Shown: positions 76 through 30,364, numbered from the stretch's first letter. The stretch: DNA of 32,000 bases from Candidatus Saccharimonadota bacterium (GCA_016700135.1 CP065004.1:180001-212000); one strand, 5' to 3'. Made by a program: numbers and translations. The notes: generated by a model from the sequence alone, not told the origin.

Positions 76-636
76 ATGAAACTAACTAACAAAAAAATTA
101 TTATATTGATCTCTGCTCTGGTCGGAGTACTTGTTCTGATAATCTTAATACTGAATGTGATAACACAACGGAAAGAAACCGCTACTCCTGAGACAAATCC
201 CGAAGTTATAAAGAAGGAAGTACAAAAGGTAATTGAAATTACGGAAGTTCCCCGGGTTCCTGATGAAAAGGGAGGAGGGATTGATACTGATTCTCCTGAA
301 GTAAAGACCTCCGTTCAGTCATTACAAAAGCTTCAATCAGCGCTTCCCTTTTATAAAATTTTCACAACTGAAGACGGAACAGAAGTCGAAGTTTCCATTC
401 CTCCTACATCAACAATTTCAAATGAGTGGACTTTACTCGTCCATATTTTCGGCCCGGACTATCAGATTCCCGAAGATTCGTCCGATTATGAGACTCAAAA
501 ACAAGCATTTCTGGCCGGAGTAAGTGAAGTTATGCTTTTTCTCGAAGAACAGGAAATCAATCCTTCAGAAATAATCATCCAATGGGGCGACAGAGCAATC
601 ATAGGTGACCGGTCTGCCAAATGGCTTTCGGAATAA
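76..636 (+). CDS. hypothetical protein with single N-terminal TM anchor
   Basis: 186-aa ORF. One hydrophobic helix near the N-terminus (IIILISALVGVLVLIILILNVI); the rest is acidic and soluble-looking. Lies 36 nt upstream of the next same-strand gene. No family recognised. Confidence 0.55.
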   Translation: MKLTNKKIIILISALVGVLVLIILILNVITQRKETATPETNPEVIKKEVQKVIEITEVPRVPDEKGGGIDTDSPEVKTSVQSLQKLQSALPFYKIFTTEDGTEVEVSIPPTSTISNEWTLLVHIFGPDYQIPEDSSDYETQKQAFLAGVSEVMLFLEEQEINPSEIIIQWGDRAIIGDRSAKWLSE

Positions 637-668
637 ATCCGTCGTTGACTTTCTTTTCCGTTTTGCAG

Positions 669-674
669 TAGAAT
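669..674 (+). promoter_or_regulatory. -10-like TAGAAT, 7 nt upstream of ATG 682
   Basis: Part of the recurrent hexamer-N6-8-ATG pattern (see findings). Confidence 0.3.
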
Positions 675-2376
675 GAATTGTATGTTTAAGTATCTGCTTT
701 TAATGGGTTTTGGATTCTCCAAGTATGCTTTCCATGTCGTGAAACGAATAATGATTGTTTTACTGGTTTTTACCTCAGTTATTTCTTTATTTTTCTTCTT
801 TAGGCAAGATAAAAAAATTCAGGATAACGCTTCATATATGTCTGTTCAACGAGAAAGAATATATATGAATATCGAAGCTATGAAAAAAGATACTTCATCG
901 GAAGGTAAAGCAAAACTGTTTGTATATCAAGGATGGATGTGTAACATCATAGGAGAAGCTTGTACCGACAATCCCGAAGATGCAAATATGAACGTCAGAA
1001 ATAGCCTTTCAGGAATCATAACCGGATGGATCACAGCACCGTATGCAAATCCTCCAGCATCCGGGATAGCCTGGCTGAAAGACGGTTTCCGTGATGCTGG
1101 TTTTGTACCGGAGACTTATGCTGCAACGGGAGTGGGCTTCGCATCTATTGCAAGTTATATGGAAATTTGGAAGCTGTTTAGGGATATTGCTTATCTTATC
1201 TTAGTGTTGGTCATGATAACGATAGGATTCATGATAATGTTTAGAGTTAATCTCGGAGGAGCCGCAGTAAGCATTGAGGCTGCCCTCCCACGAATTGTAA
1301 TCGCAATGATTATGATTACATTTTCATTCCCAATAGCAGGTTTCTTGATTGACCTTATGTATACATTAATCGCCATTAGCGTTGGTTTATTCTTTGATGT
1401 TGCGATTCAACAAGATGCTCTTACAGGCGAATATTCCTCTGCAAAGGAATATCTCAATCAGTATATGACAGCCGGTATTTGGCAAATCTGGCCAGACGGC
1501 GGTGGTACATATTTTTCCGTAGGTAACAGTTTATGGAGACTCATGCCAGCATCAGTACAAAACATGTTTCATATTGCAATGGTTGTACCGCTTGCAGTTA
1601 CTGCTGCTGATAAGTTCGGATGGATGACAGGTAAAATTGCAGACTTATTTAAGGGACTCTCCCTTGCCGGATTTAGTTCTGGAAACTTGGCAGGTATTCC
1701 GCATGTGGTCTTATTATCAGTACTCTTCGGAGCATTAGTTATATGGGGACCCGGATTAATTTTTGGGGGAATTATTATGCTCACAGTGCTACTCTTTGTA
1801 TTCCGGATATTTTTTATGCTGCTCGAGTCTTATATTAAAATTTTACTTTACATTATTTTTGCGCCAATTATTTTGCTCTTTAGCGCTATACCAGGAAACG
1901 GAAATATCGGCTGGTGGTTACGAAACCTTATAGGAGAGCTTATAACATTTCCAACAGTAATTGTCCTTACACTAGTAGGCAACGCCGTTCTCGCAGTGAA
2001 TGTTCGGGATATGGATCATCCCTTTGGTCATTTAATTGGTGGCTTCGGAATTGAGAATACATTCAAATTGCCATTTTTATATGGGTTCCAAACAGACGAT
2101 TTCAATACCATTATTGCACTTGGACTTGTGCTGATGATTCCCGATTTTGTAAAAATGGTAAAAGGATGGATAGGAGTACAGGATACGGGATTGAAATTTG
2201 GACTCGGGACTTTCTTTGCAGGAGCAACTATCTTTACAGGTGGTCTTGGTCTTGGGGCTAATCTCCAAAGCTGGAAACAATCAGCTGTCGGATATGATCC
2301 CAATAAGGGCTGGATGGATACCATGCCATTTATGAGTAAATATGCTGAAAAGATTCGAAGTTGGGGGAAAACTTAA
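673..2376 (+). CDS. polytopic integral membrane protein, function unknown (VirB6/TrbL-like role is only a hypothesis)
   Basis: 567-aa ORF with roughly 10 or more long hydrophobic segments (e.g. AYLILVLVMITIGFMIMF, VVLLSVLFGALVIWGPGLIFGGIIMLTVLLFVF). The start may be the ATG at 682, because TAGAAT (669-674) sits 7 nt upstream of it. No motif I can name. Confidence 0.7.
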   Translation: MNCMFKYLLLMGFGFSKYAFHVVKRIMIVLLVFTSVISLFFFFRQDKKIQDNASYMSVQRERIYMNIEAMKKDTSSEGKAKLFVYQGWMCNIIGEACTDNPEDANMNVRNSLSGIITGWITAPYANPPASGIAWLKDGFRDAGFVPETYAATGVGFASIASYMEIWKLFRDIAYLILVLVMITIGFMIMFRVNLGGAAVSIEAALPRIVIAMIMITFSFPIAGFLIDLMYTLIAISVGLFFDVAIQQDALTGEYSSAKEYLNQYMTAGIWQIWPDGGGTYFSVGNSLWRLMPASVQNMFHIAMVVPLAVTAADKFGWMTGKIADLFKGLSLAGFSSGNLAGIPHVVLLSVLFGALVIWGPGLIFGGIIMLTVLLFVFRIFFMLLESYIKILLYIIFAPIILLFSAIPGNGNIGWWLRNLIGELITFPTVIVLTLVGNAVLAVNVRDMDHPFGHLIGGFGIENTFKLPFLYGFQTDDFNTIIALGLVLMIPDFVKMVKGWIGVQDTGLKFGLGTFFAGATIFTGGLGLGANLQSWKQSAVGYDPNKGWMDTMPFMSKYAEKIRSWGKT

Positions 2377-2497
2377 ACCATCCTCTTTCATTGTCTGAAC
2401 TAGCAGAAACATACCTACAACAGTGTTTTCTTAGATTATCAATGTCAAAGTATAAAACACCTAATTACTAGAAAAACCTTACATAGTACTAACTTCT

Positions 2498-4093
2498 TCA
2501 GATTCTATCAGCGGGGAGTGAAGGTCGGGGGGTGGGAGTCGGAGTAGGTCCTACGAAACCCGGTAACCTAAGAATATCTACTCCAATCACTCTCAATATA
2601 AAGATCGAGAAGATAATCACAATAAGCCCCGTAATACATGCCGTCATCAGCTCCTGAGCCTTCCCCGTACGCTCCGGATTCCCTGCCGATGTCTGCATCA
2701 AAAATGAAGCATAAATAATACATCCTAATGCTATCATCCCTGCAAAGCTGATCGCCAGTCCAAATACTCTCTCATTTAATGTCTTACTGAAATCCGAATA
2801 CATACATCCAAATGCTGTCCATACCCCATCCTTGTCCATCATACAATCAAAACACTTCGCAAATTCCTCCTTGTCATAGTTCCCATCCGAATCCTTCACA
2901 TCCTTGATCGATTTACAAATCTCATGTGCCTTAAAATATGTATCTGCCATGACTTTCGAACATTCATCTCCCCGATTAAGAGCATCCATCCCCGTACTGT
3001 CATATCCAAATCTCTTCTCTATCTCCTCATCCGTCAACTTCGCACAGTAATTACTCTCAAACGCACTTCTCACATTCATGCCTCTCGCAGGATTCCACCG
3101 CGTCCCATACGGATAATCATCCGGATTAACCGTTACTCCTCTCACTTCTCCTCCGCTTGTTACCCCCTCTACGCTCGTCTCCGGTACCTCACAGTAACAG
3201 GCTACTGACTTCCCATCTCCAAACCCTTGCCGAAATTTCTCCCGGGCCTCTTCCCATGCCTCGGTCTTTGCCGAAGGTACCGCATTCTGTGCCGGCTTTA
3301 TCCAATCCCATATCTCATCTAGTTCCTCCTTCTTTGTGATTGCTTCTCTCGTTCCTACCACATTTCCTTCATCATCCACTGTTACCCGATACGGATTCGG
3401 TACCAATGGAACCTCCTGTCCATCCTCCCCGTTTATCGTCCCCGTACACATATCCATACTGCTTGTCAACTCCTCTGCCGGATTGATACCCCCCGTGAAA
3501 AGTCCTATGATCTTTTGCTTTGTCTCCTCCGAAAACAAATTCGTAAACCAGTTGTTCTTCTTTGCCAGTGTCGGATCTGAAAAATCCGGCGGTGCCTGCA
3601 TATCGATCGCTACCCCACCTAAACAACACGCTCCCCCCTCCTCCAACCCGCACACCGTCATCTCCAACTGCTTCTCAAAATTGCCTATGGTATCAGCAGA
3701 TGGTGTTATTTCAGGGCGTGGCGTAAGTACATTTGTGACAGGTGTTAAAGGAATACTATCAAACCATTCTTTAGCTTTCTGAATATAAATGGGTTTTAGT
3801 TGATTTTCGAATAAAGTTAATTGAGTAGTCGTACAAGATAATCCGGTTAATTGAAGAGCAATAACAACATTGTAATAATTTTCAAAACAAGTATTCCAAT
3901 ATTCATCATTTATAGAACCGGAATTGGTACATTTAAAAGCACTATCATTAAAAGGCTTTGCTGTATATTCATCAATAATACTGGTGAGTTTTTGTGTGCA
4001 GGCATCTTGTGCAGAAACAGCTTTAGGAATTATGAAAAGGAAAACCATTAAAACAAAAAGAGAGAATAGAAGCTTATTAGGGATGAATGACAT
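2498..4093 (-). CDS. secreted Cys-rich protein with C-terminal pilin-like two-helix anchor (paralogue A, short head)
   Basis: The ORF-track entry 2498..4234 is trimmed to the ATG at 4093 (MSFIPNKLLFSLFVLMVFLFIIPKAVSAQ, signal-peptide-like). The longer version would overlap the upstream gene end. The C-terminal ~380 aa are shared with the 4194..6248 product. It ends with two hydrophobic helices flanking SAGNPERTGKAQE, then a Pro/Thr-rich tail. Confidence 0.75.
   Translation of the reverse strand: MSFIPNKLLFSLFVLMVFLFIIPKAVSAQDACTQKLTSIIDEYTAKPFNDSAFKCTNSGSINDEYWNTCFENYYNVVIALQLTGLSCTTTQLTLFENQLKPIYIQKAKEWFDSIPLTPVTNVLTPRPEITPSADTIGNFEKQLEMTVCGLEEGGACCLGGVAIDMQAPPDFSDPTLAKKNNWFTNLFSEETKQKIIGLFTGGINPAEELTSSMDMCTGTINGEDGQEVPLVPNPYRVTVDDEGNVVGTREAITKKEELDEIWDWIKPAQNAVPSAKTEAWEEAREKFRQGFGDGKSVACYCEVPETSVEGVTSGGEVRGVTVNPDDYPYGTRWNPARGMNVRSAFESNYCAKLTDEEIEKRFGYDSTGMDALNRGDECSKVMADTYFKAHEICKSIKDVKDSDGNYDKEEFAKCFDCMMDKDGVWTAFGCMYSDFSKTLNERVFGLAISFAGMIALGCIIYASFLMQTSAGNPERTGKAQELMTACITGLIVIIFSIFILRVIGVDILRLPGFVGPTPTPTPRPSLPADRI
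2642..3691. repeat. direct repeat copy 1 (about 1.05 kb, near-identical to 4320..5369)
   Basis: Offset is exactly 1678 bp. Every line I compared is identical from 2642 to 3683, with a single mismatch at 3684 (c vs t). The antisense ORFs 2924..3208 and 4602..4886, and 3157..3339 and 4835..5017, are identical in the ORF track. Confidence 0.9.
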
Positions 4094-4099
4094 ACTATG

Positions 4100-4105
4100 A
4101 TTATA
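4100..4105 (-). promoter_or_regulatory. -10 TATAAT, 6 nt upstream of ATG 4093
   Basis: Minus strand reads GGTTATAATCATAGTATG. No SD-like purine run. Confidence 0.4.
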
Positions 4106-4193
4106 ACCATAATGACAATCGTTTGTGGAGCTAAAACACTGTGAGATCGCTACAGTGAAGAGAACAGACAGAGGCACCATTACAGGTAGATAC

Positions 4194-6248
4194 TCACTCT
4201 GAAGATGGTATGGGAGTTGGAGAAGGACCTCCAAATCCCGGTAACCTGAGAATATCTACTCCAATCACTCGCAAAATGAATATCGAAAATATGATCACTA
4301 TCAATCCCGTAATACATGCTGTCATCAGCTCCTGAGCCTTCCCCGTACGCTCCGGATTCCCTGCCGATGTCTGCATCAAAAATGAAGCATAAATAATACA
4401 TCCTAATGCTATCATCCCTGCAAAGCTGATCGCCAGTCCAAATACTCTCTCATTTAATGTCTTACTGAAATCCGAATACATACATCCAAATGCTGTCCAT
4501 ACCCCATCCTTGTCCATCATACAATCAAAACACTTCGCAAATTCCTCCTTGTCATAGTTCCCATCCGAATCCTTCACATCCTTGATCGATTTACAAATCT
4601 CATGTGCCTTAAAATATGTATCTGCCATGACTTTCGAACATTCATCTCCCCGATTAAGAGCATCCATCCCCGTACTGTCATATCCAAATCTCTTCTCTAT
4701 CTCCTCATCCGTCAACTTCGCACAGTAATTACTCTCAAACGCACTTCTCACATTCATGCCTCTCGCAGGATTCCACCGCGTCCCATACGGATAATCATCC
4801 GGATTAACCGTTACTCCTCTCACTTCTCCTCCGCTTGTTACCCCCTCTACGCTCGTCTCCGGTACCTCACAGTAACAGGCTACTGACTTCCCATCTCCAA
4901 ACCCTTGCCGAAATTTCTCCCGGGCCTCTTCCCATGCCTCGGTCTTTGCCGAAGGTACCGCATTCTGTGCCGGCTTTATCCAATCCCATATCTCATCTAG
5001 TTCCTCCTTCTTTGTGATTGCTTCTCTCGTTCCTACCACATTTCCTTCATCATCCACTGTTACCCGATACGGATTCGGTACCAATGGAACCTCCTGTCCA
5101 TCCTCCCCGTTTATCGTCCCCGTACACATATCCATACTGCTTGTCAACTCCTCTGCCGGATTGATACCCCCCGTGAAAAGTCCTATGATCTTTTGCTTTG
5201 TCTCCTCCGAAAACAAATTCGTAAACCAGTTGTTCTTCTTTGCCAGTGTCGGATCTGAAAAATCCGGCGGTGCCTGCATATCGATCGCTACCCCACCTAA
5301 ACAACACGCTCCCCCCTCCTCCAACCCGCACACCGTCATCTCCAACTGCTTCTCAAAATTGTCTATGGTCGCCTCCGGAACAAAATCATATTCAGGAGGT
5401 ATTTCTGTTATAGAACCTGCCTCAATATTTTTATTCAGAAAACGGATAACAAACCGGTCTCGTGCTTCGTGATTAGGAACCTGTCTGCTCGGATCATACT
5501 CGCCATCTGCATCTTTCGTCAAAAGCCAATTTTGGTGACAAACAAATGCAGAGCCTCCACCCCAAGAGTTAAATATCTGTTCATATTGAAGCAATGCACA
5601 ATCCGTAAGAGCGTCAGAGCGTGTTCGATTATCAGCATTAGGATCAACTGGAATACCGCAATTCCAAAAATTGTGAGTCGGCGGTAGTGCGTCAATTGCT
5701 TCATTCAAAGCTACTGAATCACAGCCTTGAACGGTAGTGAATACGGCAGTATCTTCACAGCTTGGAACTGTTGCACCATCTGACTTAGTGCAGTATGATA
5801 TTTGCTTTGGCTCAGTTGTTGGAGATGGTAATGGAACCGGTGTTGAAGTGGGTTCATTTGGGGTAACTTTTTGTTCATACAGACGTATCAAATAATCGCC
5901 ATTTGTACCCCATTTTTCACAGTAATCCTTACAATCATGATAATCACCTGACTGCCACCACAAATTCCCTATTGCTAAATTGCTACAAACCATACTTTTA
6001 AACTCAGTAGAGGAACATTTATAAGAAGAATTATTCGTACAGTATTGCAACACTGATGGATCTGCTTGCTCAAGTTTTTGTGAAACGCCCTGTCTGTCTA
6101 CCATAGATCCTCGAAGTCCTGCATCACAGCTCATACGTCCCTGCTGTATAAGAAGCTCTTGAAGCTGTGGGTTTATTGTTTTTTCCTGCGCAAAAACTCG
6201 AGGAACAACCAATAAAGCCCCAACAAGAAGTAAAAGTTTCCATCTCAT
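4194..6248 (-). CDS. secreted Cys-rich protein with C-terminal pilin-like two-helix anchor (paralogue B, long head)
   Basis: 684-aa ORF with signal peptide MRWKLLLLVGALLVVPRVFAQ. It has a ~290-aa Cys-rich unique N-terminal part with a Pro/Thr/Ser linker (PTSTPVPLPSPTTEP), then the shared body and anchor. It ends in a PSPTPIPSSE tail. Confidence 0.8.
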   Translation of the reverse strand: MRWKLLLLVGALLVVPRVFAQEKTINPQLQELLIQQGRMSCDAGLRGSMVDRQGVSQKLEQADPSVLQYCTNNSSYKCSSTEFKSMVCSNLAIGNLWWQSGDYHDCKDYCEKWGTNGDYLIRLYEQKVTPNEPTSTPVPLPSPTTEPKQISYCTKSDGATVPSCEDTAVFTTVQGCDSVALNEAIDALPPTHNFWNCGIPVDPNADNRTRSDALTDCALLQYEQIFNSWGGGSAFVCHQNWLLTKDADGEYDPSRQVPNHEARDRFVIRFLNKNIEAGSITEIPPEYDFVPEATIDNFEKQLEMTVCGLEEGGACCLGGVAIDMQAPPDFSDPTLAKKNNWFTNLFSEETKQKIIGLFTGGINPAEELTSSMDMCTGTINGEDGQEVPLVPNPYRVTVDDEGNVVGTREAITKKEELDEIWDWIKPAQNAVPSAKTEAWEEAREKFRQGFGDGKSVACYCEVPETSVEGVTSGGEVRGVTVNPDDYPYGTRWNPARGMNVRSAFESNYCAKLTDEEIEKRFGYDSTGMDALNRGDECSKVMADTYFKAHEICKSIKDVKDSDGNYDKEEFAKCFDCMMDKDGVWTAFGCMYSDFSKTLNERVFGLAISFAGMIALGCIIYASFLMQTSAGNPERTGKAQELMTACITGLIVIIFSIFILRVIGVDILRLPGFGGPSPTPIPSSE
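4320..5369. repeat. direct repeat copy 2 (partner of 2642..3691)
   Basis: Same evidence as copy 1. Beyond 5369 (3691 in copy 1) the two sequences are unrelated. Confidence 0.9.
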
Positions 6249-6254
6249 TACTTA

Positions 6255-6260
6255 ATCATA
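6255..6260 (-). promoter_or_regulatory. -10-like TATGAT, 6 nt upstream of ATG 6248
   Basis: Minus strand reads AAGTATGATTAAGTAATG. Confidence 0.3.
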
Positions 6261-6294
6261 CTTTATACTTGAGTGAAAATACAATAATCGAAGA

Positions 6295-9200
6295 TTAACT
6301 CTCATTTTCTTCAAAGCCTCTTTTCGCTGCCAGAATAAGTACGGCAAGTGCTACCAATATCATATATTTTGGCCCTTCACGCATAATAAGATGAGCAATA
6401 TTTGCTATTTCACGATCTCTGAGTCCATCACCAGACATCTCAGCCCATTTATTACGTACGACATTACCATCTTGAGTTCCAAATAACATATCTGCAACTT
6501 TGCCTACCTGTTCTCCAATCCATCCTTTATCTGCCCATCTTTCCTGATATGACGGTACCGTTTCGTAAACTTTTGCACTTTCCGGAGTTCTCTTAGGAAA
6601 CTGTGCGTAATGCAGAAAATCCGTCACGATTCTATATCGATCTTCCCTATGCAAAGGATATTCCGGACCTTCTTTAACTACAGTAGAGAATGCCGATCTT
6701 AAGCGGTGCTGTGTCATGTATTGTGCTTCAACAAGAAAATTCTCCGCTTCTGAATTGATTCTCATGACATTCATAGCATTCTCAAGAACACGCATCGCCA
6801 TTTGATTTGCCTGGTCTTCATCTTCGTCTTTGATCGAGGTACGCATTTCGGTAATAAGTTCATGCAATGCTTCAAGATCTTCCTTTCGATAATATTTTTT
6901 CAAAGCAGAGAGCAGTCCGCCTCCGGTGACATCGTTCTTATATCGCTCCTGCATGCTCGCGATTGCACTTATGGACCGCTGTACCATATCACGCCCTCCG
7001 CGAACCAACTCCAGGTACTGATACGCTGTATCATTTATCGGCATACCGGAAGTCGCACCAATGATCTCGCCTTTTGACCATGTCAGGCGGTTTGTTACTG
7101 TATTATTATAGTACTCCCGATACTTTCGTTTGAGTTCTTCAGGATACTCATCTTCAAAACGCTCAACGGCAGCTTTGTCATTCGGATTAATTTTGTGCAT
7201 TTTCATTGCCATTTTTTTCCGTGTGTCTGTGACAACAGGCTTTTCAGCGTGTGGATTTTCCTGCGGTTTTTGGATCATACGGGCCTTTATCTGTTCATAA
7301 ACGGCAAGTGCTCTGTTGATTCGTTTATCCTTTTCCTCCTGACTTAAATGAGAAATTCCCTGATATTTTTGCTCAAGTACTTTTTTGATAACATCAGAAT
7401 CGAGAGCGTATCCTTTCTTTTCCTGTCCTTCCACAATTTCAATATCACTTCTGTCTGCTTTAAGACTCTCAATATTTTCTCCATAAAGTGTTTTAACCTT
7501 ATCACCATTGTCTGTTTGCTTTCTGATATGATCATTCATCTGCTCAATCGAAGCGGTTCTTGCTTTTTGTTGAACAAATAGAATATCATCAAACGAATTG
7601 TCAAGTTCTTGAACAGAAGTACCTTCAGTTGTGTGAAAATGATCCTGCAATTCCTGAAGAAGTGTCACACCATTTTGTGATCTTGTTGAACTTTCCATGA
7701 AGACGAAATCCATCGGGACACGTTCGAAAGCGACGATGGTTAGGGCATTATTGACTATCTCCTTCAAGCTTCCGATTTTATTTTCTAAATTCCTGTTTTT
7801 TGCTGACTTTATAGATTCACCTTTCCCCGGTTGTGTCTTTTGGTGCAGAATTGGCCTTATTTTCTTTTCCCAAAACTCCTGCTCTGAATTGACATCAGGA
7901 TAAAAACCGTCTTTCCCAAGTCCGTCTTTGAAGTACCGTCGGTATAAAAATTTGAAAAAGTTTTCGTAATGCTTTTCCTGCTTGACACCGCCGCCTTCCG
8001 TTTCTTTCATGTACGCATTTTCATGCCCCCACAAAAACTCATCTCTATAGATTTTAAGCATATTGGCACTTATGTTTTCGATACGTTTCCATCCATACTC
8101 AAGAGCATGATGTTCAGGATCTTTCGCAGCACTGAGATCAAGCTGATTTTCATTGTTCAATGGATCAAGCATGTCCTGCAGCCACGGATACATCGCATAT
8201 TTCATGCGCCATCCCAGTTGTATTTCAACTCCTCCATTACCCATCGGATTCAGTTCCATGATATTGGGGAGCATTTTCTCGTTATAATTTTTTCTATCGA
8301 CTACAGCCATATTCCCAAGCAGGAATGATTGGTCATAAATATCTCTTCCTTCTGCCGTAATATCTTCATGCACCCAGTCCTCGATATACCAGTCACGATT
8401 AGGCTGCGGCATGAACGCCATGCCTTTCACGTAAGCATCCGTAACCTGCCACATTTCGGCTCCATACCAAGTTCTAAACACATCCAAGTTCTTCAGAGCA
8501 GGGTCACGGTACGTAGGTTTTGCCAGATCGGTAACTGGAGCATGAGAATAACTTGAAAGTGCATGAATCTCCAGATTTACCAAGGACAAATGCATACGCG
8601 CATGGATGATTGCGCGTTTGATAACCCACTCAGGCATATCGCCGAAGTTGTGGATCATGTCTTTCAGAGCCTCGCTTTCCACTTCATTCATATTCTCAAA
8701 AAGTCCAAGAAGGACCTCGGGGTCTTTGCGCCAGTGATTCATCGCCATCTTTTTCTTGTAGTAGCTGCTGAGCTGAATCTTTGCTGCTTCTACAAGATCG
8801 GCAAACGGTAGCTTATACAGTTCATCAAGGCGGTTGGCAGGAAGGGTTTGCTTGGCATATTGGGCAGCCTGCTGAAAGAAAGATTGCTGTTCCTGCGTCT
8901 GTCCTGTGGACATCAGATAATTGAAGTTTATACCGGTCTCAAGAAGATCTTTTTCAGCATCAATCGAAAGGTACATATTTTCAAGAAACTCTTTGTAGCT
9001 GCTCTCCCGAAGTTCCATACTTTCCGTTTCCTCAACGAACTTACCCAGGACTACAGATTCCCCTTTATCTCCTTCACGGGGTACCCACGTCTTCTTTTTT
9101 GTATTTCGGTACTGATAGTATTTGATACCGTCTTCTTCCCATTTTGTATCCCGCTCACTGATCGGATGAGCCAAATACATGATTTTCTTTTTCAGATTGT

Positions 9201-10329
9201 AAAAAACAGTTTGCGGATTGAGCATGTACCCGGTACTTGCATCTGAGACAAGTTGTGCAAACGGTTTCTTTGACCCTCCATCGATGACCGGTGCAAAGAT
9301 TTTGTGTACCATGTAAATCAATGTTTTGTTGATTTCATGTGTAGCTTCTTTAGAAGCACGTTCCTTGCGCTTCTCGGGATCAGCTATTGCAAGTACTTTC
9401 GGATCCTCACGCAGTTTCCGTTCATATATTTCTTTGTAAAAGTCCCTGAACCGTTCAGGAGATTCCATATGACGAAGCAGCTGACTGGCCAACTTGACAT
9501 CCGGATCATCTGCCCCTCCCTGTTCAATAAGATTCGCAAGGTATTTATCTTCATTTCTCGTAAATTCCGAAGCGCCCTGCATCTCATCCATCGCCTGTCG
9601 GATTTCTTCCCGCTGTGCCTCAAGTTCCGTCGCACGGGCCTGTCTGGCTTCGGATTTTTTGTTTGTTAAATCTTCTTGAGTGATGTTGGTTATTGTACCT
9701 TCATCAATCATTTCATTCACTATGTCCGTAAGGAAAGATTTTGCTAAAGACCCACTTCGACCGGTTCCCAGAATATCTTTGAGATCTGTTTCTAATGGGG
9801 TAGGAGGAGCACCTGCACTGGAAAATCGTATATAATCAGGATTATTTATTAAGCCATTAATAATCGCTTGGATATATGGAGCATCAGAGGGACTAAAGCC
9901 CCTGGAAAGTTTTAGCACAAGTTTGTCAAAAAATGCTGCCGAAGTGGGATCAGCCGGTTTGGTAATAAGCCCTTCCTGTGCTGCAACTTTAAATAAGTCA
10001 ATCGAATCATGTACACTGTTTACAACAGGTGCAATATCACGTGACACCTGTCCTCCACTTAATTCGATCGTTTTAGAAGTCATTTCGGCTTCCCGTGATT
10101 TTGACTGGATATCGGATTTAATACTTTGAGTGACAGCAATACGAATTCTATCTTTCTGCTGCTCATCCACCTGGTCTTTGTTCGCCTTATAGTCCTCAAT
10201 CTGTCTTCTGGCCTGTCTGAACTCCATACTCTCACGCCGTCTTTCAGACGATCCGTTCCCGCCGTTTGATCTCTCATTTGATCGGTTTGGGTTCTGACCA
10301 CCGGGTTGTGATTCTTGATTGACAGTCAT
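6295..10329 (-). CDS. very large (1344 aa) hypothetical protein, C-terminal tail anchor
   Basis: Uninterrupted 4035-nt ORF. The N-terminus is low-complexity and basic (QESQPGGQNPNRSNERSNGGNGSSERRRE). The body is charged and helical-looking. There is one hydrophobic helix at the extreme C-terminus (PKYMILVALAVLILAAK). No Walker A or other catalytic motif seen. Confidence 0.85.
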   Translation of the reverse strand: MTVNQESQPGGQNPNRSNERSNGGNGSSERRRESMEFRQARRQIEDYKANKDQVDEQQKDRIRIAVTQSIKSDIQSKSREAEMTSKTIELSGGQVSRDIAPVVNSVHDSIDLFKVAAQEGLITKPADPTSAAFFDKLVLKLSRGFSPSDAPYIQAIINGLINNPDYIRFSSAGAPPTPLETDLKDILGTGRSGSLAKSFLTDIVNEMIDEGTITNITQEDLTNKKSEARQARATELEAQREEIRQAMDEMQGASEFTRNEDKYLANLIEQGGADDPDVKLASQLLRHMESPERFRDFYKEIYERKLREDPKVLAIADPEKRKERASKEATHEINKTLIYMVHKIFAPVIDGGSKKPFAQLVSDASTGYMLNPQTVFYNLKKKIMYLAHPISERDTKWEEDGIKYYQYRNTKKKTWVPREGDKGESVVLGKFVEETESMELRESSYKEFLENMYLSIDAEKDLLETGINFNYLMSTGQTQEQQSFFQQAAQYAKQTLPANRLDELYKLPFADLVEAAKIQLSSYYKKKMAMNHWRKDPEVLLGLFENMNEVESEALKDMIHNFGDMPEWVIKRAIIHARMHLSLVNLEIHALSSYSHAPVTDLAKPTYRDPALKNLDVFRTWYGAEMWQVTDAYVKGMAFMPQPNRDWYIEDWVHEDITAEGRDIYDQSFLLGNMAVVDRKNYNEKMLPNIMELNPMGNGGVEIQLGWRMKYAMYPWLQDMLDPLNNENQLDLSAAKDPEHHALEYGWKRIENISANMLKIYRDEFLWGHENAYMKETEGGGVKQEKHYENFFKFLYRRYFKDGLGKDGFYPDVNSEQEFWEKKIRPILHQKTQPGKGESIKSAKNRNLENKIGSLKEIVNNALTIVAFERVPMDFVFMESSTRSQNGVTLLQELQDHFHTTEGTSVQELDNSFDDILFVQQKARTASIEQMNDHIRKQTDNGDKVKTLYGENIESLKADRSDIEIVEGQEKKGYALDSDVIKKVLEQKYQGISHLSQEEKDKRINRALAVYEQIKARMIQKPQENPHAEKPVVTDTRKKMAMKMHKINPNDKAAVERFEDEYPEELKRKYREYYNNTVTNRLTWSKGEIIGATSGMPINDTAYQYLELVRGGRDMVQRSISAIASMQERYKNDVTGGGLLSALKKYYRKEDLEALHELITEMRTSIKDEDEDQANQMAMRVLENAMNVMRINSEAENFLVEAQYMTQHRLRSAFSTVVKEGPEYPLHREDRYRIVTDFLHYAQFPKRTPESAKVYETVPSYQERWADKGWIGEQVGKVADMLFGTQDGNVVRNKWAEMSGDGLRDREIANIAHLIMREGPKYMILVALAVLILAAKRGFEENES

Positions 10330-10411: not shown

Positions 10412-10615
10412 TTATACTTTTCTATATACTAAATCCTTTAAGATCGTCCATGAACTGGAGATAACATGAAATGACATTGAGGAAGTCCGCATATACTGTG
10501 AAACATCACAATGAAGACAGGTGACGGCAGAACTCATTCCGAAAAAGATAATGAGATCAAACAAGAAGATTGCCGGTAACAGAAAAAGGCTTAAGATGAC
10601 TAATACTCTTTTCAT
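10412..10615 (-). CDS. possible small membrane/secreted protein (67 aa)
   Basis: Hydrophobic N-terminus (MKRVLVILSLFLLPAIFLFDLIIFFG). An extended -10-like box, TGCTATACT, lies 6 nt upstream of the ATG. It is short and no homology is recognisable. Confidence 0.35.
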   Translation of the reverse strand: MKRVLVILSLFLLPAIFLFDLIIFFGMSSAVTCLHCDVSQYMRTSSMSFHVISSSWTILKDLVYRKV

Positions 10616-10660: not shown

Positions 10661-11179
10661 TTATTCAATATCAATTTTGATATCTTCTTCCCGTTCTTCG
10701 ACTTCTTCACGATGTTCATCATTCTCACGCGCGACATCTACCACCAATCGTCTGTCCCGGCCTTCCCCTATTGAATAACTGGTCAGATCAGGGTAGGTCT
10801 TTGCGATGTATTCATGCATGATGCGTCTTTCATATGACGAAAAACCCCGAAGATACGTCGCAGACTGTCTGTCCTGTACTTTTGTCGCTGCCTGATCGGC
10901 AATATATTCAAGTCTTTCGATCTGCTTCTCACGATAATCATTGACGTTGATGAGCAGGTCCGCTTTTTCACCTGTTTCTTTGAAGATTATTACCTCAAGA
11001 ATCTTCTGTAATGCACGAATCGTTTCACCATGACGTCCGATCACTGTAGGGGCTTCATCATCGGTTTTAATATTGACATGATACATGCCTTCTTCTTCCG
11101 TGACTTCTACTTCGGCATTCTCAACCATTTTATTGAGAAGGTCCTGAGTGTGTTTTTTTATGATTTCTGCTTTTTCCAT
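10661..11179 (-). CDS. jag: Jag/KhpB-type RNA-binding protein (KH + R3H domains)
   Basis: KH GXXG loop in VIGRHGETIRALQKIL. R3H signature in YERRIMHEYI. Canonical position downstream of yidC. Confidence 0.85.
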   Translation of the reverse strand: MEKAEIIKKHTQDLLNKMVENAEVEVTEEEGMYHVNIKTDDEAPTVIGRHGETIRALQKILEVIIFKETGEKADLLINVNDYREKQIERLEYIADQAATKVQDRQSATYLRGFSSYERRIMHEYIAKTYPDLTSYSIGEGRDRRLVVDVARENDEHREEVEEREEDIKIDIE

Positions 11180-11201
11180 AAATTGAACAATTATTAATTA
11201 C

Positions 11202-11218
11202 TAAGGCTCTAGACTAGC
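11202..11218. repeat. IS terminal inverted repeat (jag-proximal end)
   Basis: TAAGGCTCTAGACTAGC is the perfect reverse complement of 11906-11922. Confidence 0.8.
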
Positions 11219-11883
11219 ACATTAACAATTTGTAATAGTTCATTGTAAAGGATCGATGGGGATTTGCTCCATCTCCATTCACACTCTTTCAAGTGTAATG
11301 GAAAGTTTTTCTTTACACCATTGAACTTAACGAGACGTCTTTTACAAAAGGACCAGAATGACTCTATGCCATTGATATGGACCCCTTTTGTATTTGAGAA
11401 CTCATTTTTCTTGTGATTGATTCTCAAATGTTTGTCATACCCGACATCAACAAGTCCGTTGTATCCGCTCCACGAATCTGAATATACAGTACTGTTCAAG
11501 TCAATCTTTCCCTTCATAACAGCATGTAGCGTTCTTCTTTTACAGTTTGGAATGATACGAGTAAATACACGTCCTTGACGCTCATATATCCCAAATACTA
11601 CCTGCTTAAATGACGTCCCACGACCTCTTTTACTTGACTTGCCTCTCATCCTTCGAGGTCCAAAGTATGATTCATCAATTTCTATCTCACCACCAACATA
11701 TCGTTGCATCTGGTGCACTTGGTGATGATATATGAGTTGACGAATATTATTGTAATATTTGTTGACTGTATTGCGGTTGAGACCCAAAATACCAGAGGTC
11801 TGTGTAGCACTCAGATCGTGTGCAAAACACCATAGTATCTTTTTTCTCTTGTATTTTGATATCGGCCTATTGTTACAAACCAT
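11209..11883 (-). CDS. IS1595-family DDE transposase
   Basis: 224 aa. HTH-like LNRNTVNKYYNNIRQ; IEIDESYFG; SDSWSGY; HINGIESFWSFCKRRL. These are characteristic of DDE_Tnp_IS1595 proteins (from memory; confirm by HMM search). Confidence 0.8.
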   Translation of the reverse strand: MVCNNRPISKYKRKKILWCFAHDLSATQTSGILGLNRNTVNKYYNNIRQLIYHHQVHQMQRYVGGEIEIDESYFGPRRMRGKSSKRGRGTSFKQVVFGIYERQGRVFTRIIPNCKRRTLHAVMKGKIDLNSTVYSDSWSGYNGLVDVGYDKHLRINHKKNEFSNTKGVHINGIESFWSFCKRRLVKFNGVKKNFPLHLKECEWRWSKSPSILYNELLQIVNVLV

Positions 11884-11889
11884 ACCTCT

Positions 11890-11898
11890 AGTTTAGCA
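11890..11898 (-). promoter_or_regulatory. extended -10-like TGCTAAACT, 6 nt upstream of the transposase ATG
   Basis: Minus strand reads GTGCTAAACTAGAGGTATG, inside the IS. Confidence 0.35.
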
Positions 11899-11905
11899 CT
11901 ACTCT

Positions 11906-11922
11906 GCTAGTCTAGAGCCTTA
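11906..11922. repeat. IS terminal inverted repeat (yidC-proximal end)
   Basis: GCTAGTCTAGAGCCTTA is the perfect reverse complement of 11202-11218. Confidence 0.8.
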
Positions 11923-11926
11923 CTAA

Positions 11927-12757
11927 TTACTTAGTTACTGACTTTGCTTTTCTCTCATCAATATAATGCTGGATTATACTAAATAGCGAAAACGTATTCC
12001 AATACAGCGACAAGCCGAGAGGGAGAGTATATGAAAAATACCCGATCATAACCGGGAATATATATTTCATTTGTGTACCCATCGCTCTCTGGAATTCATC
12101 TGCCGTACTTGGTTCTTCTTTTGCATCTTTCTTTTTCAGTTCATTAGAGTCAGTTTTTTTCGGTTCATCCATTTGCGGCATCGTGACTTTCGACTGGAAA
12201 TACTGCAAAACCGCAGTTATTACCGGTACCAGGTAGTAATACCACAGACCTGACTGTGCCGGTGATAACGCAAGGTTATAAACAAAAAAATTCGGATCTA
12301 TCTGAGAAATGGTGAGAGCCGGATGATACAGTTTGTCGTTGATCTCCCGGACGATTTTTCCGTCTTTATCATTCGTCAAAAAGAGTTGTAGTGTGTGATA
12401 CAGACCGTAAATAAGCGGGATTTGAAGAATGGCAAAAAGACAGCCGGCAGCCGGGTTAATTCCGGCCTCCTGGTAGATACGCATTTGTTCTTTTTGCAGG
12501 GTTTGAGGATCTTTTTTGTGTTTTTTCTGCAAAGCATCAAGATGAGGTTTGATTTCCTTCATCTTTTTTGCGGTATCCAGCTGCTGACGGAAGAAGGGAT
12601 GCATGAGAAGCCTTATCAGCACCGTAATTGCAATAATGGCAAATCCGAAGGCGCCCGGCAATCCTATCCTGACAAATATGTCATAGAAAACGACCAGTGC
12701 ATTCGTTACCGGCTGAATGAAAATCAGGTTAAAAAAATCAATAAGAAATTGCGGCAC
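11927..12757 (-). CDS. yidC: YidC/Oxa1-family membrane protein insertase (short form)
   Basis: 276 aa. Typical pattern GFAIIAITVLIRLLMHPF ... MKEIKPHLDALQKKHKKDPQ ... QIPLIYGLYH ... LGLSLYW. GTG start at 12757. The stop codon (11927-11929) lies inside the putative IS target-site duplication. Confidence 0.9.
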   Translation of the reverse strand: MPQFLIDFFNLIFIQPVTNALVVFYDIFVRIGLPGAFGFAIIAITVLIRLLMHPFFRQQLDTAKKMKEIKPHLDALQKKHKKDPQTLQKEQMRIYQEAGINPAAGCLFAILQIPLIYGLYHTLQLFLTNDKDGKIVREINDKLYHPALTISQIDPNFFVYNLALSPAQSGLWYYYLVPVITAVLQYFQSKVTMPQMDEPKKTDSNELKKKDAKEEPSTADEFQRAMGTQMKYIFPVMIGYFSYTLPLGLSLYWNTFSLFSIIQHYIDERKAKSVTK

Positions 12758-12797
12758 AATTAAAGTGATAATTTATAAGTAGGCTTCACGACATCAA

Positions 12798-12935
12798 TCA
12801 GATAGAAAGTGACTTACGTCCTTTTTGTCTTCTGCGTTTGATGACATCCTGGCCTTTTTTGGTAGCCATTCGGGAAAGAAATCCGTGTGTTGTCTTTTTC
12901 TTTTTTGCCTTGGGCTGATATGTTTGCTTTGCCAT
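12798..12935 (-). CDS. rpmH: 50S ribosomal protein L34
   Basis: Hand translation of the minus strand gives [45 protein letters not shown], 45 aa, with the classic L34 pattern. It is not in the ORF track because it is under 60 aa. The listed ORF 12814..13014 is another frame of the same DNA. Confidence 0.9.
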
Positions 12936-27773: not shown

Positions 27774-27774
27774 A

Positions 27775-29467: not shown

Positions 29468-29509
29468 GGCTTTGTATGGAGAAACAATGAGATACAGCAC
29501 ACGACGCAC

Positions 29510-29538
29510 AAAAAAAAAGGAATGAGGAAATCATTCCT
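29510..29538 (-). terminator. intrinsic terminator between the sigma/anti-sigma pair and the mevalonate operon
   Basis: On the minus strand: AGGAATGA TTTCC TCATTCCT (perfect 8-bp stem, 5-nt loop, 29518-29538) followed by nine T (29510-29518). Confidence 0.7.
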
Positions 29539-29550
29539 GCCGACATGTGT

Positions 29551-29793: not shown

Positions 29794-29796
29794 GCA

Positions 29797-30346: not shown

Positions 30347-30354
30347 AGGTAACC

Positions 30355-30360: not shown

Positions 30361-30364
30361 CAGG

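What the first reader, a model, noticed from the sequence alone, without database searches (positions are those of the whole stretch)
76..10329. Ten-kb block of five unannotatable envelope genes: a candidate uncharacterised surface or pilus-associated module
Seen in sequence: the block holds five genes.
- An N-terminally anchored 186-aa protein.
- A 567-aa protein with many TM helices.
- Convergent to these, a minus-strand run of three genes: the 1344-aa tail-anchored orphan, then the two secreted pilin-hairpin paralogues.

The intergenic gaps in the minus-strand run are 46 and 100 bp. None of the five contains a catalytic or NTPase motif that I can recognise. All five are membrane-associated or secreted.

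Established knowledge: VirB2/TrbC-type pilins are two-helix hairpins, and VirB6/TrbL are large polytopic proteins.

Inference: the polytopic protein, the hairpin-anchored ectodomain proteins and the giant scaffold could form a reduced, ATPase-less (in this window) surface assembly used for cell-cell contact. This is a hypothesis only.
Basis: inference. Interest (0 to 1): 0.7.

Follow-up and report, generated by a model that had tools for sequence, protein, structure and literature searches.

The report
Conserved pilin-fusion envelope module in Roizmanbacteria
This is a real gene block, kept together in dozens of species of tiny uncultured Roizmanbacteria, that pairs fast-evolving surface proteins anchored by a conjugation-type pilin hairpin with a many-helix membrane protein and a giant unknown cytoplasmic protein; it looks like an undescribed offshoot of the type IV secretion pilus system, but that function is not proven.

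Summary
They are not unannotatable. The two paralogues end in a T4SS_pilin (PF18895) hairpin, scoring 25.9 and 26.5 bits against a 26.6 cut-off. A profile-profile comparison with short Patescibacteria pilins gives 98.7% probability.

The block is a conserved core-chromosome module of Roizmanbacteria/Microgenomates. Next to the polytopic gene there is a convergent pilin-fusion gene in 68 of 71 species loci and a tail-anchored giant in 52 of 52. It usually sits beside jag-yidC-rpmH, and the trio stays together where that context is rearranged. A sixth conserved gene (67 aa, 10412-10615) was missed.

The polytopic protein's AlphaFold model (pLDDT 74.5) has R388 VirB6 as its best PDB match, but weakly (E 0.13, TM 0.22-0.37), and sequence profiles show nothing. 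The giant matches nothing known. No VirB4 or VirD4 lies within about -20 to +30 kb, although most of these genomes encode VirB4 elsewhere.

The ectodomains evolve much faster than their neighbours (38-45% against 80-95% identity). This genome carries two N-terminal variants in tandem, with a 1,041-bp identical core.

Best reading: a dispersed T4SS-pilin-derived surface-display or adhesion module. Function remains inferred.

The parts
76..636 (+). g1: 186-aa bitopic protein with an N-terminal membrane anchor, an acidic/Pro-rich linker and a C-terminal domain of about 110 aa
   Evidence: ORF; single hydrophobic segment at residues 2-34. It is 77% identical in close relatives and sits directly upstream of g2. 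An HMM-matched g1/150-aa-type ORF (40 of the 41 are 140-412 aa) lies directly upstream of g2 in 41/68 loci, and among the short ones the two types (5 vs 28 sequences) align at hhalign probability 99.9%. No Pfam, NCBIfam or PHROG family.
673..2376 (+). g2: 567-aa polytopic membrane protein and anchor gene of the module; candidate highly diverged VirB6-like platform
   Evidence: Seven hydrophobic blocks. It has 758+ homologues with no Pfam domain, 3,990 50%-identity clusters and at least 507 relatives among GTDB species genomes. The AF2 model has pLDDT 74.5 and six helices of 33-57 residues. The Foldseek top hit is TrwI/VirB6 8rt9_F (E 0.13, probability 0.96, TM 0.22/0.37), followed by DotA and six more VirB6 chains. 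hhalign against VirB6, PrgH and Orf15 is negative, but that test had low power.
2498..4093 (-). g3: 531-aa secreted pilin-fusion, 'short N-module' type. Order of parts: signal peptide, variable N-module, Pro/Thr linker, Cys-rich ectodomain, T4SS_pilin hairpin, Pro/Thr tail
   Evidence: PF18895 25.9 bits against a cut-off of 26.6, at residues 485-550 of the 578-aa ORF. NF045849 Mbov_0395 pilin-like, E 2.4e-4. Contains 18 Cys. Start chosen at ATG 4093.
4194..6248 (-). g4: 684-aa secreted pilin-fusion, 'long N-module' type
   Evidence: PF18895 26.5 bits at residues 597-662. Contains 26 Cys. It is 45-48% identical over its full length to the single pilin-fusion of relatives L171 and L001.
2549..2773 (-). 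Pilin hairpin of g3 (residues 441-515)
   Evidence: Two hydrophobic helices at 441-468 and 479-515. hhalign of 100-aa C-termini of fusions against short pilins gives probability 98.7%, E 2.6e-16 over 70 columns.
4233..4451 (-). Pilin hairpin of g4 (residues 600-672)
   Evidence: In the 30 codons after the identical core (the second pilin helix and the following residues through LRLPGF), 14 codons differ between g3 and g4, and all changes are synonymous.
2643..3683 (.). 1,041-nt direct repeat, 100% identical to 4321-5361. It is the shared Cys-rich core of g3 and g4, read as a gene-conversion tract
   Evidence: Position-by-position comparison at offset 1678 and codon table. The repeat finder reports its 3' end.
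6295..10329 (-). g5: 1344-aa, highly charged, Cys-free, predicted all-helical cytoplasmic protein with a C-terminal tail anchor; function unknown
   Evidence: ORF. A conserved hydrophobic C-terminus followed by a charged tail is seen across 65 giants. A giant is present in 52/52 loci with at least 7 kb downstream. No conserved Walker A; only W707 and P872 are invariant. No Pfam, NCBIfam or PDB match. AF2 gave pLDDT 42, which is unusable.
10412..10615 (-).
   Evidence: 91/85/79% amino-acid identity in L170/L171/L001, and E 1.7e-10 to the 70-aa gene called in L003. My own HMM finds it in 31 loci, 21 of them within 400 bp upstream of the giant. No Pfam family.
10661..12935 (-). Conserved neighbours: jag/khpB (10661-11179), an IS1595-family insertion (11195-11929), yidC (11927-12757) and rpmH (12798-12935)
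   Evidence: Pfam R3H/KH, DDE_Tnp_IS1595 and 60KD_IMP. 30-nt terminal inverted repeats. L34 ORF. jag and yidC lie downstream of g2 in 46/50 loci.
23594..24333 (+). Two tandem short T4SS_pilin genes (112 and 134 aa), possible partners of the fusions
   Evidence: PF18895 at 40.3 and 27.6 bits. The first also hits PF04956 TrbC/VirB2 at 21.1 bits, E 3.7e-4.

Best explanation
The block is a lineage-wide, chromosomal envelope module of Roizmanbacteria/Microgenomates. Its recognisable parts derive from the VirB2-like pilin system of the Patescibacteria type IV secretion apparatus.

Shown:
- g3 and g4 have predicted signal peptides, large Cys-rich and very fast-evolving ectodomains, and a C-terminal T4SS-pilin two-helix hairpin.
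- g2 (polytopic), one such pilin-fusion and the tail-anchored giant g5 are kept together across species.
- In close relatives, the g1-g2 operon starts with the cell-wall hydrolases CHAP and Amidase_2.

Inferred mechanism:
1. The fusions are cleaved after export and sit in the cytoplasmic membrane by their hairpin, with the ectodomain outside.
2. g2 is built of long hydrophobic helices like VirB6. It acts as the membrane platform that binds the hairpins.
3. g2 either holds the fusions as a surface adhesin complex or feeds them, as minor or tip subunits, into a filament of the short pilins encoded elsewhere (for example at 23594-24333).
4. The hydrolases open the wall locally.
5. g5 and the 67-aa protein form the cytoplasmic and membrane-proximal scaffold.
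6. Energy, if it is needed, comes from a VirB4 encoded elsewhere.

The variable N-modules, present here as two alternatives in tandem, would set partner or host specificity.
For: Pilin identity:
- PF18895 scores 25.9 and 26.5 bits, with unmarked precomputed hits (E at most 1e-5) in the relatives L170 and L171.
- NF045849 pilin-like match.
- hhalign gives 98.7% probability and E 2.6e-16 against short pilins.
- The short pilins cross-hit PF04956 TrbC/VirB2.

Linkage:
- A pilin-fusion is present in 68/71 loci and a giant in 52/52.
- L012, L015 and L016 keep g2, the fusion, g5 and the small anchored protein together although yidC-jag has moved to the other side.
- After removing housekeeping divergence, residual distances correlate: g2-g5 partial r 0.47 (p 0.001), fusion-g5 0.33 (p 0.002), g2-fusion 0.20 (p 0.054).

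Surface exposure:
- Against relatives in which jag is 95% and aaRS 81-87% identical, g2 is 61% and the fusions 38-45% identical.
- The fusions carry 18-30 Cys.
- The hairpin is under purifying selection: 14 synonymous and 0 non-synonymous changes.

VirB6 hint:
- The Foldseek top hit is TrwI/VirB6, with DotA and six more VirB6 chains in the top 20 of 350,542 chains.
- The model has six helices of 33-57 residues, comparable to 'seven long alpha-helices, five mostly hydrophobic' (PMC9259494).

Literature fit (PMC12102498):
- VirB6 is 'scarce' in Microgenomatia, 'suggesting extreme sequence divergence'.
- T4SS genes there are dispersed.
- Pilin arrays are abundant.
- No adhesins were detected.

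Pilin geometry: pilin termini are solvent-exposed in conjugative pili, so an N-terminal fusion would face outward (bioRxiv 10.1101/2024.03.04.583355).

Hydrolases: CHAP, Big_5 and Amidase_2 lie upstream of g1-g2 in relatives.
Against: - The VirB6 match is not significant (E 0.13, TM 0.22/0.37, rmsd 12.7 A).
- Pfam and NCBIfam scans of 40 g2 family members never hit TrbL/VirB6.
- hhalign against VirB6, PrgH and Tn916 Orf15 gives probability of 0.5% or less. The control, VirB6 against PrgH, reached only 8.6%, so that test had little power.
- No VirB4, VirD4, VirB3/PrgI or VirB8 was recognised within about -20 to +30 kb.
- g3 and g4 score just below the PF18895 gathering cut-off.
- A 45-65 kDa ectodomain on every subunit would not fit a conjugative-pilus lattice. 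At best the fusions would be minor subunits (inference).
- g5 and g1 have no assignable role.
- There are no expression or localisation data.
Confidence: 0.5

Rival explanations
1. The pilin hairpin has been co-opted purely as a membrane anchor. g3 and g4 are ordinary membrane-tethered surface proteins (adhesins or an S-layer-like coat) that never polymerise. g2 is an unrelated, lineage-specific membrane protein, such as an exporter, insertase partner or receptor. The module then has nothing mechanistically in common with type IV secretion.
For: - No T4SS ATPase or other T4SS core gene lies in the neighbourhood.
- There is no sequence-level VirB6 signal.
- The ectodomains are too large for a lattice of identical subunits (inference).
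- The module sits in the core chromosome next to yidC, whose product inserts small hairpin and tail-anchored proteins (established knowledge of YidC; adjacency).
Against: - The hairpin is conserved like a functional pilin and not merely kept hydrophobic. The loop motif S-x-G-N-P-E-K/R is shared with short pilins, and all differences between g3 and g4 there are synonymous.
- The top structural hits for g2 are VirB6 and DotA.
- Short pilins are conserved on the left flank of the module and occur elsewhere in the window.
Confidence: 0.3
2. The module is a housekeeping cell-envelope growth or division machine. The wall hydrolases (CHAP, Amidase_2), g1, g2 and the giant cytoplasmic scaffold g5 would remodel peptidoglycan. 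The pilin-fusions would be accessory wall-associated proteins.
For: - The location is universal and single-copy, in the core chromosome between ClpB and jag-yidC-rpmH.
- Hydrolase genes lie in the same-strand run as g1-g2 in relatives.
- g5 evolves at the housekeeping rate among close relatives, at 80% identity.
Against: - g2 and the fusions diverge much faster than housekeeping genes.
- Across 36 species g5 is the most divergent protein of all (mean distance 0.78 against 0.41), which is unusual for division machinery.
- No similarity to any known divisome or elongasome family was found.
Confidence: 0.1
3. The genes are neighbours only through inherited synteny near rpmH-yidC, with no functional link between them.
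For: Synteny of the whole region, including ClpB, Leu/Val-tRNA synthetase and DUF2298, is generally high in this lineage.
Against: - The g2/fusion/g5 trio stays together in the rearranged loci L012, L015 and L016.
- Residual co-variation of g2, g5 and the fusion remains after removing housekeeping divergence.
- All the products are membrane-associated or secreted.
Confidence: 0.07
4. The block is a remnant of a conjugative element, plasmid or prophage.
For: It has pilin-type domains. An IS1595-family transposase lies nearby at 11209-11883.
Against: - The chromosomal position is the same in about 80 species.
- No integrase or relaxase was seen in the window.
- tblastn of g2 and g4 found no match in 72,556 plasmids or 50,697 phage records.
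- The IS is a private insertion, absent from close relatives.
- GC content is unremarkable across the block.
Confidence: 0.03

Closest known systems
Patescibacteria (CPR) type IV secretion system with VirB2-like pilin arrays (Wang et al. 2023 Cell, cited in PMC12857230; Quinonero-Coronel et al. 2025, PMC12102498)
   Same: - The pilin family is the same (PF18895/PF04956 were the profiles used to find those pilins).
- The host is a monoderm CPR bacterium.
- The location is chromosomal, non-conjugative and near rpmH.
- Pilin genes are multiplied and sequence-divergent.
- Wall hydrolases are encoded nearby.
   Different: - Here the pilin hairpin is the C-terminal ~75 residues of a 250-690 aa secreted protein, not a ~100-aa pilin.
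- No virB4, virB3/prgI, trsD or virD4 lies in the neighbourhood.
- The partners are an unannotated polytopic protein and a 1,130-1,425 aa tail-anchored protein that that work does not describe.
- The two paralogues are 96.75% identical over 400 aa, whereas the reported maximum within arrays is 54%.
VirB6 (TrwI)-VirB2 pilus-assembly platform of the R388 T4SS (PMC9259494)
   Same: - It is a polytopic protein made of long, mostly hydrophobic helices.
- It is the best, though weak, structural match of the g2 model.
- It works with membrane-embedded two-helix pilins, which it recruits and assembles.
   Different: - g2 is twice as long (567 against about 300-340 aa).
- It has an extra N-terminal extracytoplasmic Cys-containing region.
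- There is no detectable sequence or profile similarity.
- No VirB5, VirB4 or VirB11 gene lies beside it.
Mbov_0395-family pilin-like conjugal transfer protein of Mycoplasma ICEs (NCBIfam NF045849)
   Same: It is a weak match to the same C-terminal hairpin (E about 2e-4, 21 bits against a cut-off of 40), in a wall-less or monoderm setting.
   Different: The score is below the cut-off. Those are ~80-aa proteins on mobile elements.
Paralogous VirB2 arrays of Bartonella and Anaplasma (cited in PMC12102498)
   Same: Surface-exposed pilin variants are duplicated in tandem, and this is thought to give antigenic or host-range variation.
   Different: There the variation lies within the small pilin itself. 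Here it lies in swapped N-terminal modules of a large ectodomain, and the core has been homogenised by recombination.
Gram-positive conjugation adhesins such as PrgB of pCF10
   Same: They offer a possible functional analogy: a large surface protein that mediates contact for a monoderm T4SS. No such adhesin has been found in Patescibacteria (PMC12102498).
   Different: PrgB is LPXTG/sortase-anchored, is unrelated in sequence and has no pilin hairpin.

Membership tests
T4SS_pilin (Pfam PF18895; VirB2/TrbC-like) | Match to the family HMM at or above the gathering score (26.6 bits) | tested here: inconclusive
   g3 scores 25.9 bits and g4 26.5 bits, E about 1e-5, just under the cut-off. The single pilin-fusions of the close relatives L170 and L171 carry unmarked precomputed PF18895 hits (E at most 1e-5). 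L001's hit is 'weak'.
T4SS_pilin (Pfam PF18895; VirB2/TrbC-like) | Profile-level homology to bona fide short pilins of the same genomes | tested here: met
   hhalign of the C-terminal 100 aa of the distinct positionally defined fusions (72 loci) against the distinct short pilins (36 ORFs) gives probability 98.7%, E 2.6e-16, over 70 columns. The window's short pilin scores 40.3 bits on PF18895.
T4SS_pilin (Pfam PF18895; VirB2/TrbC-like) | Signal peptide followed by two hydrophobic helices joined by a short polar loop | tested here: met
   Hydropathy shows a signal peptide plus helices at 441-468 and 479-515 in g3, and at 600-627 and 638-672 in g4. The loop is SAGNPERTGKAQE.
T4SS_pilin (Pfam PF18895; VirB2/TrbC-like) | Small protein (about 70-130 aa) consisting essentially of the hairpin | tested here: not met
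   g3 is 531 aa and g4 is 684 aa. The family median next to g2 is about 252 aa. These are fusions, so they are a variant and not typical members.
VirB6/TrbL (Pfam PF04610; MPF_T VirB6, MPF_FATA PrgH) | Sequence or profile similarity to VirB6, TrbL, PrgH or Orf15 | tested here: inconclusive
   No Pfam or NCBIfam hit in 40 family members. hhalign probability is 0.2-0.5%. The comparator profiles were thin, though: the VirB6-PrgH control reached only 8.6% and the VirB6-Orf15 control 0.2%.
VirB6/TrbL (Pfam PF04610; MPF_T VirB6, MPF_FATA PrgH) | Polytopic protein with at least 5 hydrophobic helices | tested here: met
   Seven hydrophobic blocks and long helices in the AF2 model.
VirB6/TrbL (Pfam PF04610; MPF_T VirB6, MPF_FATA PrgH) | Fold similarity to solved VirB6 | tested here: inconclusive
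   The Foldseek top hit is 8rt9_F TrwI/VirB6 (E 0.13, probability 0.96, TM 0.22/0.37). Seven VirB6 chains and DotA are in the top 20, and no hit has E <= 0.001.
VirB6/TrbL (Pfam PF04610; MPF_T VirB6, MPF_FATA PrgH) | Encoded within a T4SS locus near virB4 | tested here: not met
   No VirB4-type gene lies within +-10 kb of g2 in L001, L002, L170 and L171 by precomputed Pfam. None is among the 10 most widespread unknown-ORF clusters of 80 loci, and none lies beyond recF.
Type IV secretion system (as a locus) | Signature VirB4 ATPase | tested here: not met
   It is absent from the 32-kb window and from the flanks of relatives. It is present somewhere in 6 of 8 module-bearing genomes according to Table S1 of PMC12102498, but its position there could not be read.
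Conjugative or mobile element | Relaxase or integrase, variable insertion site, homologues on plasmids or phages | tested here: not met
   Neither a relaxase nor an integrase was seen in the window. The chromosomal position is fixed. There were no tblastn matches in the plasmid or phage collections.

The most novel reading that the evidence does not exclude
Roizmanbacteria/Microgenomates build a previously unrecognised surface organelle from three parts.
- VirB2-type pilin hairpins are fused to large, rapidly diversifying, modular adhesin-like ectodomains. These would stand in for the missing VirB5/PrgB-type adhesin.
- g2 is the 'missing', extremely diverged VirB6 platform of this class.
- A ~150 kDa tail-anchored cytoplasmic protein of a new fold couples or scaffolds the organelle.

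The organelle would be genetically separate from VirB4, and perhaps independent of it.
Probability: 0.2. Interest if true: 0.8.

Novelty: new variant of a known kind. Interest (0 to 1): 0.6.

Why it matters
Patescibacteria are thought to live attached to other microbes. Their T4SS and VirB2-like pilins are the only such system known to be essential for growth of its bearer, yet no adhesin has been found and VirB6 is reported as nearly undetectable in Microgenomatia.

This module offers concrete candidates for both. One is a pilin-anchored, fast-evolving ectodomain protein with swappable N-terminal modules. The other is a conserved polytopic partner whose best structural match is VirB6.

It also defines three protein families of unknown function that are universal in a large uncultured lineage: g2, g5 and the 67-aa protein. 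If the link to contact or host specificity holds, the variable modules could serve as markers of host range. The g2-hairpin pair could serve as a minimal model for how VirB6-type platforms handle pilins.

Tried and rejected
Searches that found nothing:
- Pfam, NCBIfam and PHROG scans of the five proteins gave nothing beyond the pilin hairpin.
- PDB sequence searches with g2, g4 and g5 and with the A1 and A3 profiles gave nothing.
- Pfam and NCBIfam scans of 40 g2 homologues and 30 g5 homologues found no recurrent family.

Searches that did not deliver what was needed:
- The exhaustive profile search with the g2 alignment found 3,990 clusters but listed only the best 150. I could not use distant members to bridge to TrbL/VirB6.
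- Two word-index searches for g5, one with the single sequence and one with a 30-sequence profile, returned only the same six close relatives. The AF2 run therefore had a 7-row alignment and gave pLDDT 42. I did not send that model to Foldseek.
- hhalign of the g2 family against hand-collected VirB6 (5 sequences), PrgH (6 sequences) and Tn916 Orf15 was negative. The controls show the test had little power.

Looking for VirB4:
- A metagenome scan with RecF extended the left flank in 5 Roizmanbacteria-type contigs (L085, L090, L091, L093, L094). The ORFs scanned in L085, L090, L093 and L094 were EF-G, RpoC and metabolic genes.
- In other CPR classes the recF neighbourhood holds large unscanned ORFs of unknown identity; I did not run family searches on them.

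Other checks:
- The ClpB-like gene next to the module is an ordinary ClpB/ClpC by domain content. I rejected it as a dedicated motor.
- Promoter and terminator scans gave no more sites than shuffled sequence.
- P0001, the 100%-identical g2 copy, could not be traced to a contig, so the window's own left flank was not seen.


Full report
**Observation**

The five ORFs exist as described: g1 76-636(+) at 186 aa, g2 673-2376(+) at 567 aa, g4 4194-6248(-) at 684 aa and g5 6295-10329(-) at 1344 aa. g3 ends at 2498(-). The g5-g4 gap is 46 bp.

Hydropathy confirms the topologies. g1 has one N-terminal anchor. g2 has seven hydrophobic blocks. g3 and g4 each have a signal peptide plus a C-terminal two-helix hairpin. 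g5 has a single C-terminal hydrophobic segment in an otherwise highly charged, Cys-free protein.

g3 and g4 share a 1,041-nt tract at 100% identity (2643-3683 = 4321-5361). Their N-terminal modules are unrelated. In the 30 codons after the tract (the second pilin helix and the following residues through LRLPGF), 14 codons differ, all synonymously. This reads as an old duplication with a recently homogenised core and a hairpin under strong purifying selection.

**Annotation**

'Unannotatable' is too strong.
- Both paralogues hit Pfam PF18895 (T4SS_pilin) at their C-termini with 25.9 and 26.5 bits, against a cut-off of 26.6.
- Both hit NCBIfam NF045849 (Mbov_0395 pilin-like) weakly.
- The window also holds two ordinary short T4SS_pilin genes at 23594-24333 (40.3 and 27.6 bits). 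The first cross-hits TrbC/VirB2 PF04956.
- I defined the fusion family purely by position next to g2 in 72 loci. Its C-terminal 100 aa align to the short pilins of the same loci with hhalign probability 98.7%, E 2.6e-16.

g1, g2 and g5 match no Pfam, NCBIfam, PHROG or PDB sequence, either alone or as family profiles.

**Distribution and synteny**

g2 belongs to a large family:
- at least 758 hits in the word-index search, named Roizmanbacteria, Woesebacteria or Microgenomates where a name is given;
- 3,990 clusters at 50% identity in the exhaustive search;
- at least 507 loci among GTDB species genomes.

In 80 of those loci I called ORFs and built iterative HMMs. The recurrent order is:

recF-like, AA-kinase/methyltransferase, short pilin (~105 aa), ~225-aa polytopic protein, ClpB | C39/CHAP-type secreted protein, ~150-aa N-anchored protein, g2 | pilin-fusion (median ~252 aa), giant (1,130-1,425 aa), [67-aa protein], jag, yidC, rpmH, Leu/Val-tRNA synthetase, DUF2298.

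Counts corrected for contig ends:
- a convergent pilin-fusion in 68/71 loci;
- a convergent giant in 52/52 loci, of which 46 have a clearly hydrophobic C-terminus (one search shows the conserved tail anchor);
- jag and yidC downstream in 46/50 loci.

A g1-type anchored protein lies directly upstream of g2 in 41/68 loci.

In L012, L015 and L016 the yidC-jag pair sits on the other side, yet g2, the fusion, the giant and the small anchored protein stay together.

After regressing out housekeeping divergence (jag, yidC, aaRS) over 36 species, residual distances still correlate. The partial correlations are g2-g5 0.47 (p 0.001), fusion-g5 0.33 (p 0.002) and g2-fusion 0.20 (p 0.054). This is weak supporting evidence only.

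**A sixth member**

The 331-bp 'gap' between jag and g5 holds a 67-aa ORF at 10412-10615(-). It has a transmembrane segment, a CxxC and an F.(K/R)(T/S)SS motif.
- It is 91, 85 and 79% identical in L170, L171 and L001, and is recognisably related (E 1.7e-10) to a 70-aa gene called in L003.
- My HMM finds it in 31 loci, 21 of them within 400 bp upstream of the giant.

**Close relatives and rates**

Two contigs carry g5 at 79-81% identity (L170, L171). They show what lies left of the window: CHAP, Big_5, Amidase_2, two unknowns (200 and 317 aa), g1 and g2 on one strand, with ClpB divergent. Each has a single pilin-fusion carrying a PF18895 hit. One is a 'short N-module' type (561 aa) and the other a 'long' type (689 aa). 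The window carries both types in tandem.

| Protein | Identity to the window |
|---|---|
| jag | 95% |
| yidC | 85-86% |
| aaRS | 81-87% |
| g5 | 80% |
| g1 | 77% |
| g2 | 61% |
| pilin-fusions | 38-45% |

The hairpin itself stays nearly invariant. That pattern, together with 18-30 cysteines per ectodomain, fits surface-exposed, diversifying proteins.

**Is g2 a VirB6?**

With a 40-sequence alignment AlphaFold gave pLDDT 74.5 and pTM 0.63. The protein is built from six helices of 33-57 residues.

Foldseek against 350,542 PDB chains ranked TrwI/VirB6 of the R388 T4SS first (8rt9_F, E 0.13, probability 0.96, TM 0.22/0.37). The DotA protochannel came second, and six further VirB6 chains were in the top 20. 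No hit reached E <= 0.001.

Profile-profile tests were negative, with probability 0.5% or less. I ran them against VirB6 (5 alphaproteobacterial plasmids), PrgH (6 Firmicutes plasmids) and Tn916 Orf15, which I collected myself. These thin profiles barely recognise each other: VirB6-PrgH reached 8.6% and VirB6-Orf15 0.2%. The test therefore cannot exclude homology.

I treat the VirB6 link as a lead with roughly one-in-three to two-in-five odds.

**ATPases**

No VirB4 or VirD4 was found in any of these places:
- the 32-kb window;
- within +-10 kb of g2 in L001, L002, L170 and L171 by precomputed Pfam;
- among the 10 most widespread clusters of unassigned ORFs in 80 loci;
- beyond recF in the scanned ORFs of four of five Roizmanbacteria-type contigs, where EF-G, RpoC and metabolic genes follow.

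The adjacent AAA+ protein is a standard ClpB/ClpC by domains.

Table S1 of PMC12102498 lists VirB4 as present in 6 of 8 module-bearing Roizmanbacteria assemblies I checked. The two 'No' entries are drafts.

That paper also reports the following for Microgenomatia:
- T4SS genes are dispersed.
- VirB6 is 'scarce... suggesting extreme sequence divergence'.
- VirB2 arrays are especially abundant.
- No adhesins were found.

**g5**

The family is universal in the module but very divergent: 11-26% identity to distant members, with only W707 and P872 invariant. It has no conserved P-loop. The shallow alignment allowed by the tools gave an unusable model of pLDDT 42 that is helical throughout. Its role is unknown.

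**Interpretation**

The most economical reading is a chromosomal, lineage-wide envelope module derived from the Patescibacteria VirB2-pilin system.
- The fusions are pilin-anchored ectodomain proteins.
- In conjugative pili the termini are solvent-exposed and the loop faces the lumen (bioRxiv 10.1101/2024.03.04.583355). An N-terminal domain would therefore point outward.
- Size makes the fusions plausible only as membrane-held adhesins or as minor or tip subunits.
- g2 would be the platform, the hydrolases would open the wall, and g5 and the 67-aa protein would act as scaffold.

Shown: gene structure, pilin homology, co-occurrence, rate differences and the mosaic paralogues.

Inferred: platform function, any filament, the contact function and the energy source.

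The main rival is that the hairpin is merely an anchor and g2 is unrelated to VirB6. Pure synteny and a mobile-element origin are unlikely, because g2 and g4 have no plasmid or phage homologues and the chromosomal position is fixed.

**Novelty**

The T4SS pilin family and the Patescibacteria T4SS are known. Three things are not described in the literature I could search:
- the fusion of the hairpin to large modular ectodomains;
- its fixed partnership with the g2 and g5 families;
- its separation from VirB4.

I rate it a new variant of a known kind, with interest 0.6.

Noticed in passing
window 10412-10615 (-): A conserved 67-aa membrane protein (TM + CxxC + F.(K/R)(T/S)SS motif) lies between jag and g5. 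It is 79-91% identical in close relatives and was found in 31 related loci. No family matches it. It is probably a sixth member of the module.
   Followed up: partly
window 11195-11929: An IS1595-family element (224-aa DDE_Tnp_IS1595 transposase, 30-nt terminal inverted repeats at 90%) is inserted between jag and yidC. It is absent from the close relatives L170 and L171. It may separate yidC/rpmH transcription from jag-g5.
   Followed up: partly
window 23594-24333 (+): Two tandem short T4SS_pilin genes (112 and 134 aa; PF18895 at 40.3 and 27.6 bits) lie 13 kb from the block, between uppS and mevalonate kinase.
   Followed up: partly
window 26753-28933 (-): HMG-CoA reductase is split into two ORFs (profile positions 2-132 and 152-266, with the rest missing). 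The HMG-CoA synthase-like ORFs overlap out of frame. These are either pseudogenes or indel errors. If they are errors, that hints at a long-read assembly, which would also explain how the 1-kb perfect repeat was resolved.
   Followed up: partly
window 29000-32000: This region contains only short ORFs, including a 112-aa sigma-70 region-2-only ORF (30008-30346) and a Yip1-like membrane ORF. The coding is possibly degraded or error-rich.
   Followed up: no
L002 3391-4388 (and the same position in most loci): Downstream of ClpB on the left flank there is a conserved pair: a ~225-aa polytopic protein with an HEMSH (HExxH) motif and a ~105-aa short T4SS pilin. The polytopic protein could be a pilin-processing metalloprotease. 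It has no Pfam match.
   Followed up: partly
window 12798-12935 (-): rpmH (L34, 45 aa) lies directly upstream of yidC with no rnpA between them. No tRNA gene occurs anywhere in the 32 kb.
   Followed up: no
L083 (MGAR01000007.1) against L081 (same assembly): A second g2/pilin-fusion/jag/yidC locus in the same MAG lacks the giant gene. Several other MAGs (CAZUBL01, PFLI01, CAYTFR01) also show two g2 loci. It is unclear whether these are true paralogous loci or mixed strains in a bin.
   Followed up: no
L001, L011, L018, L033 and L170/L171 left flanks: The ClpB next to the module varies from about 825 to 1,620 aa between species, against about 860 aa for a usual ClpB. This suggests large insertions or N-terminal extensions.
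   Followed up: no
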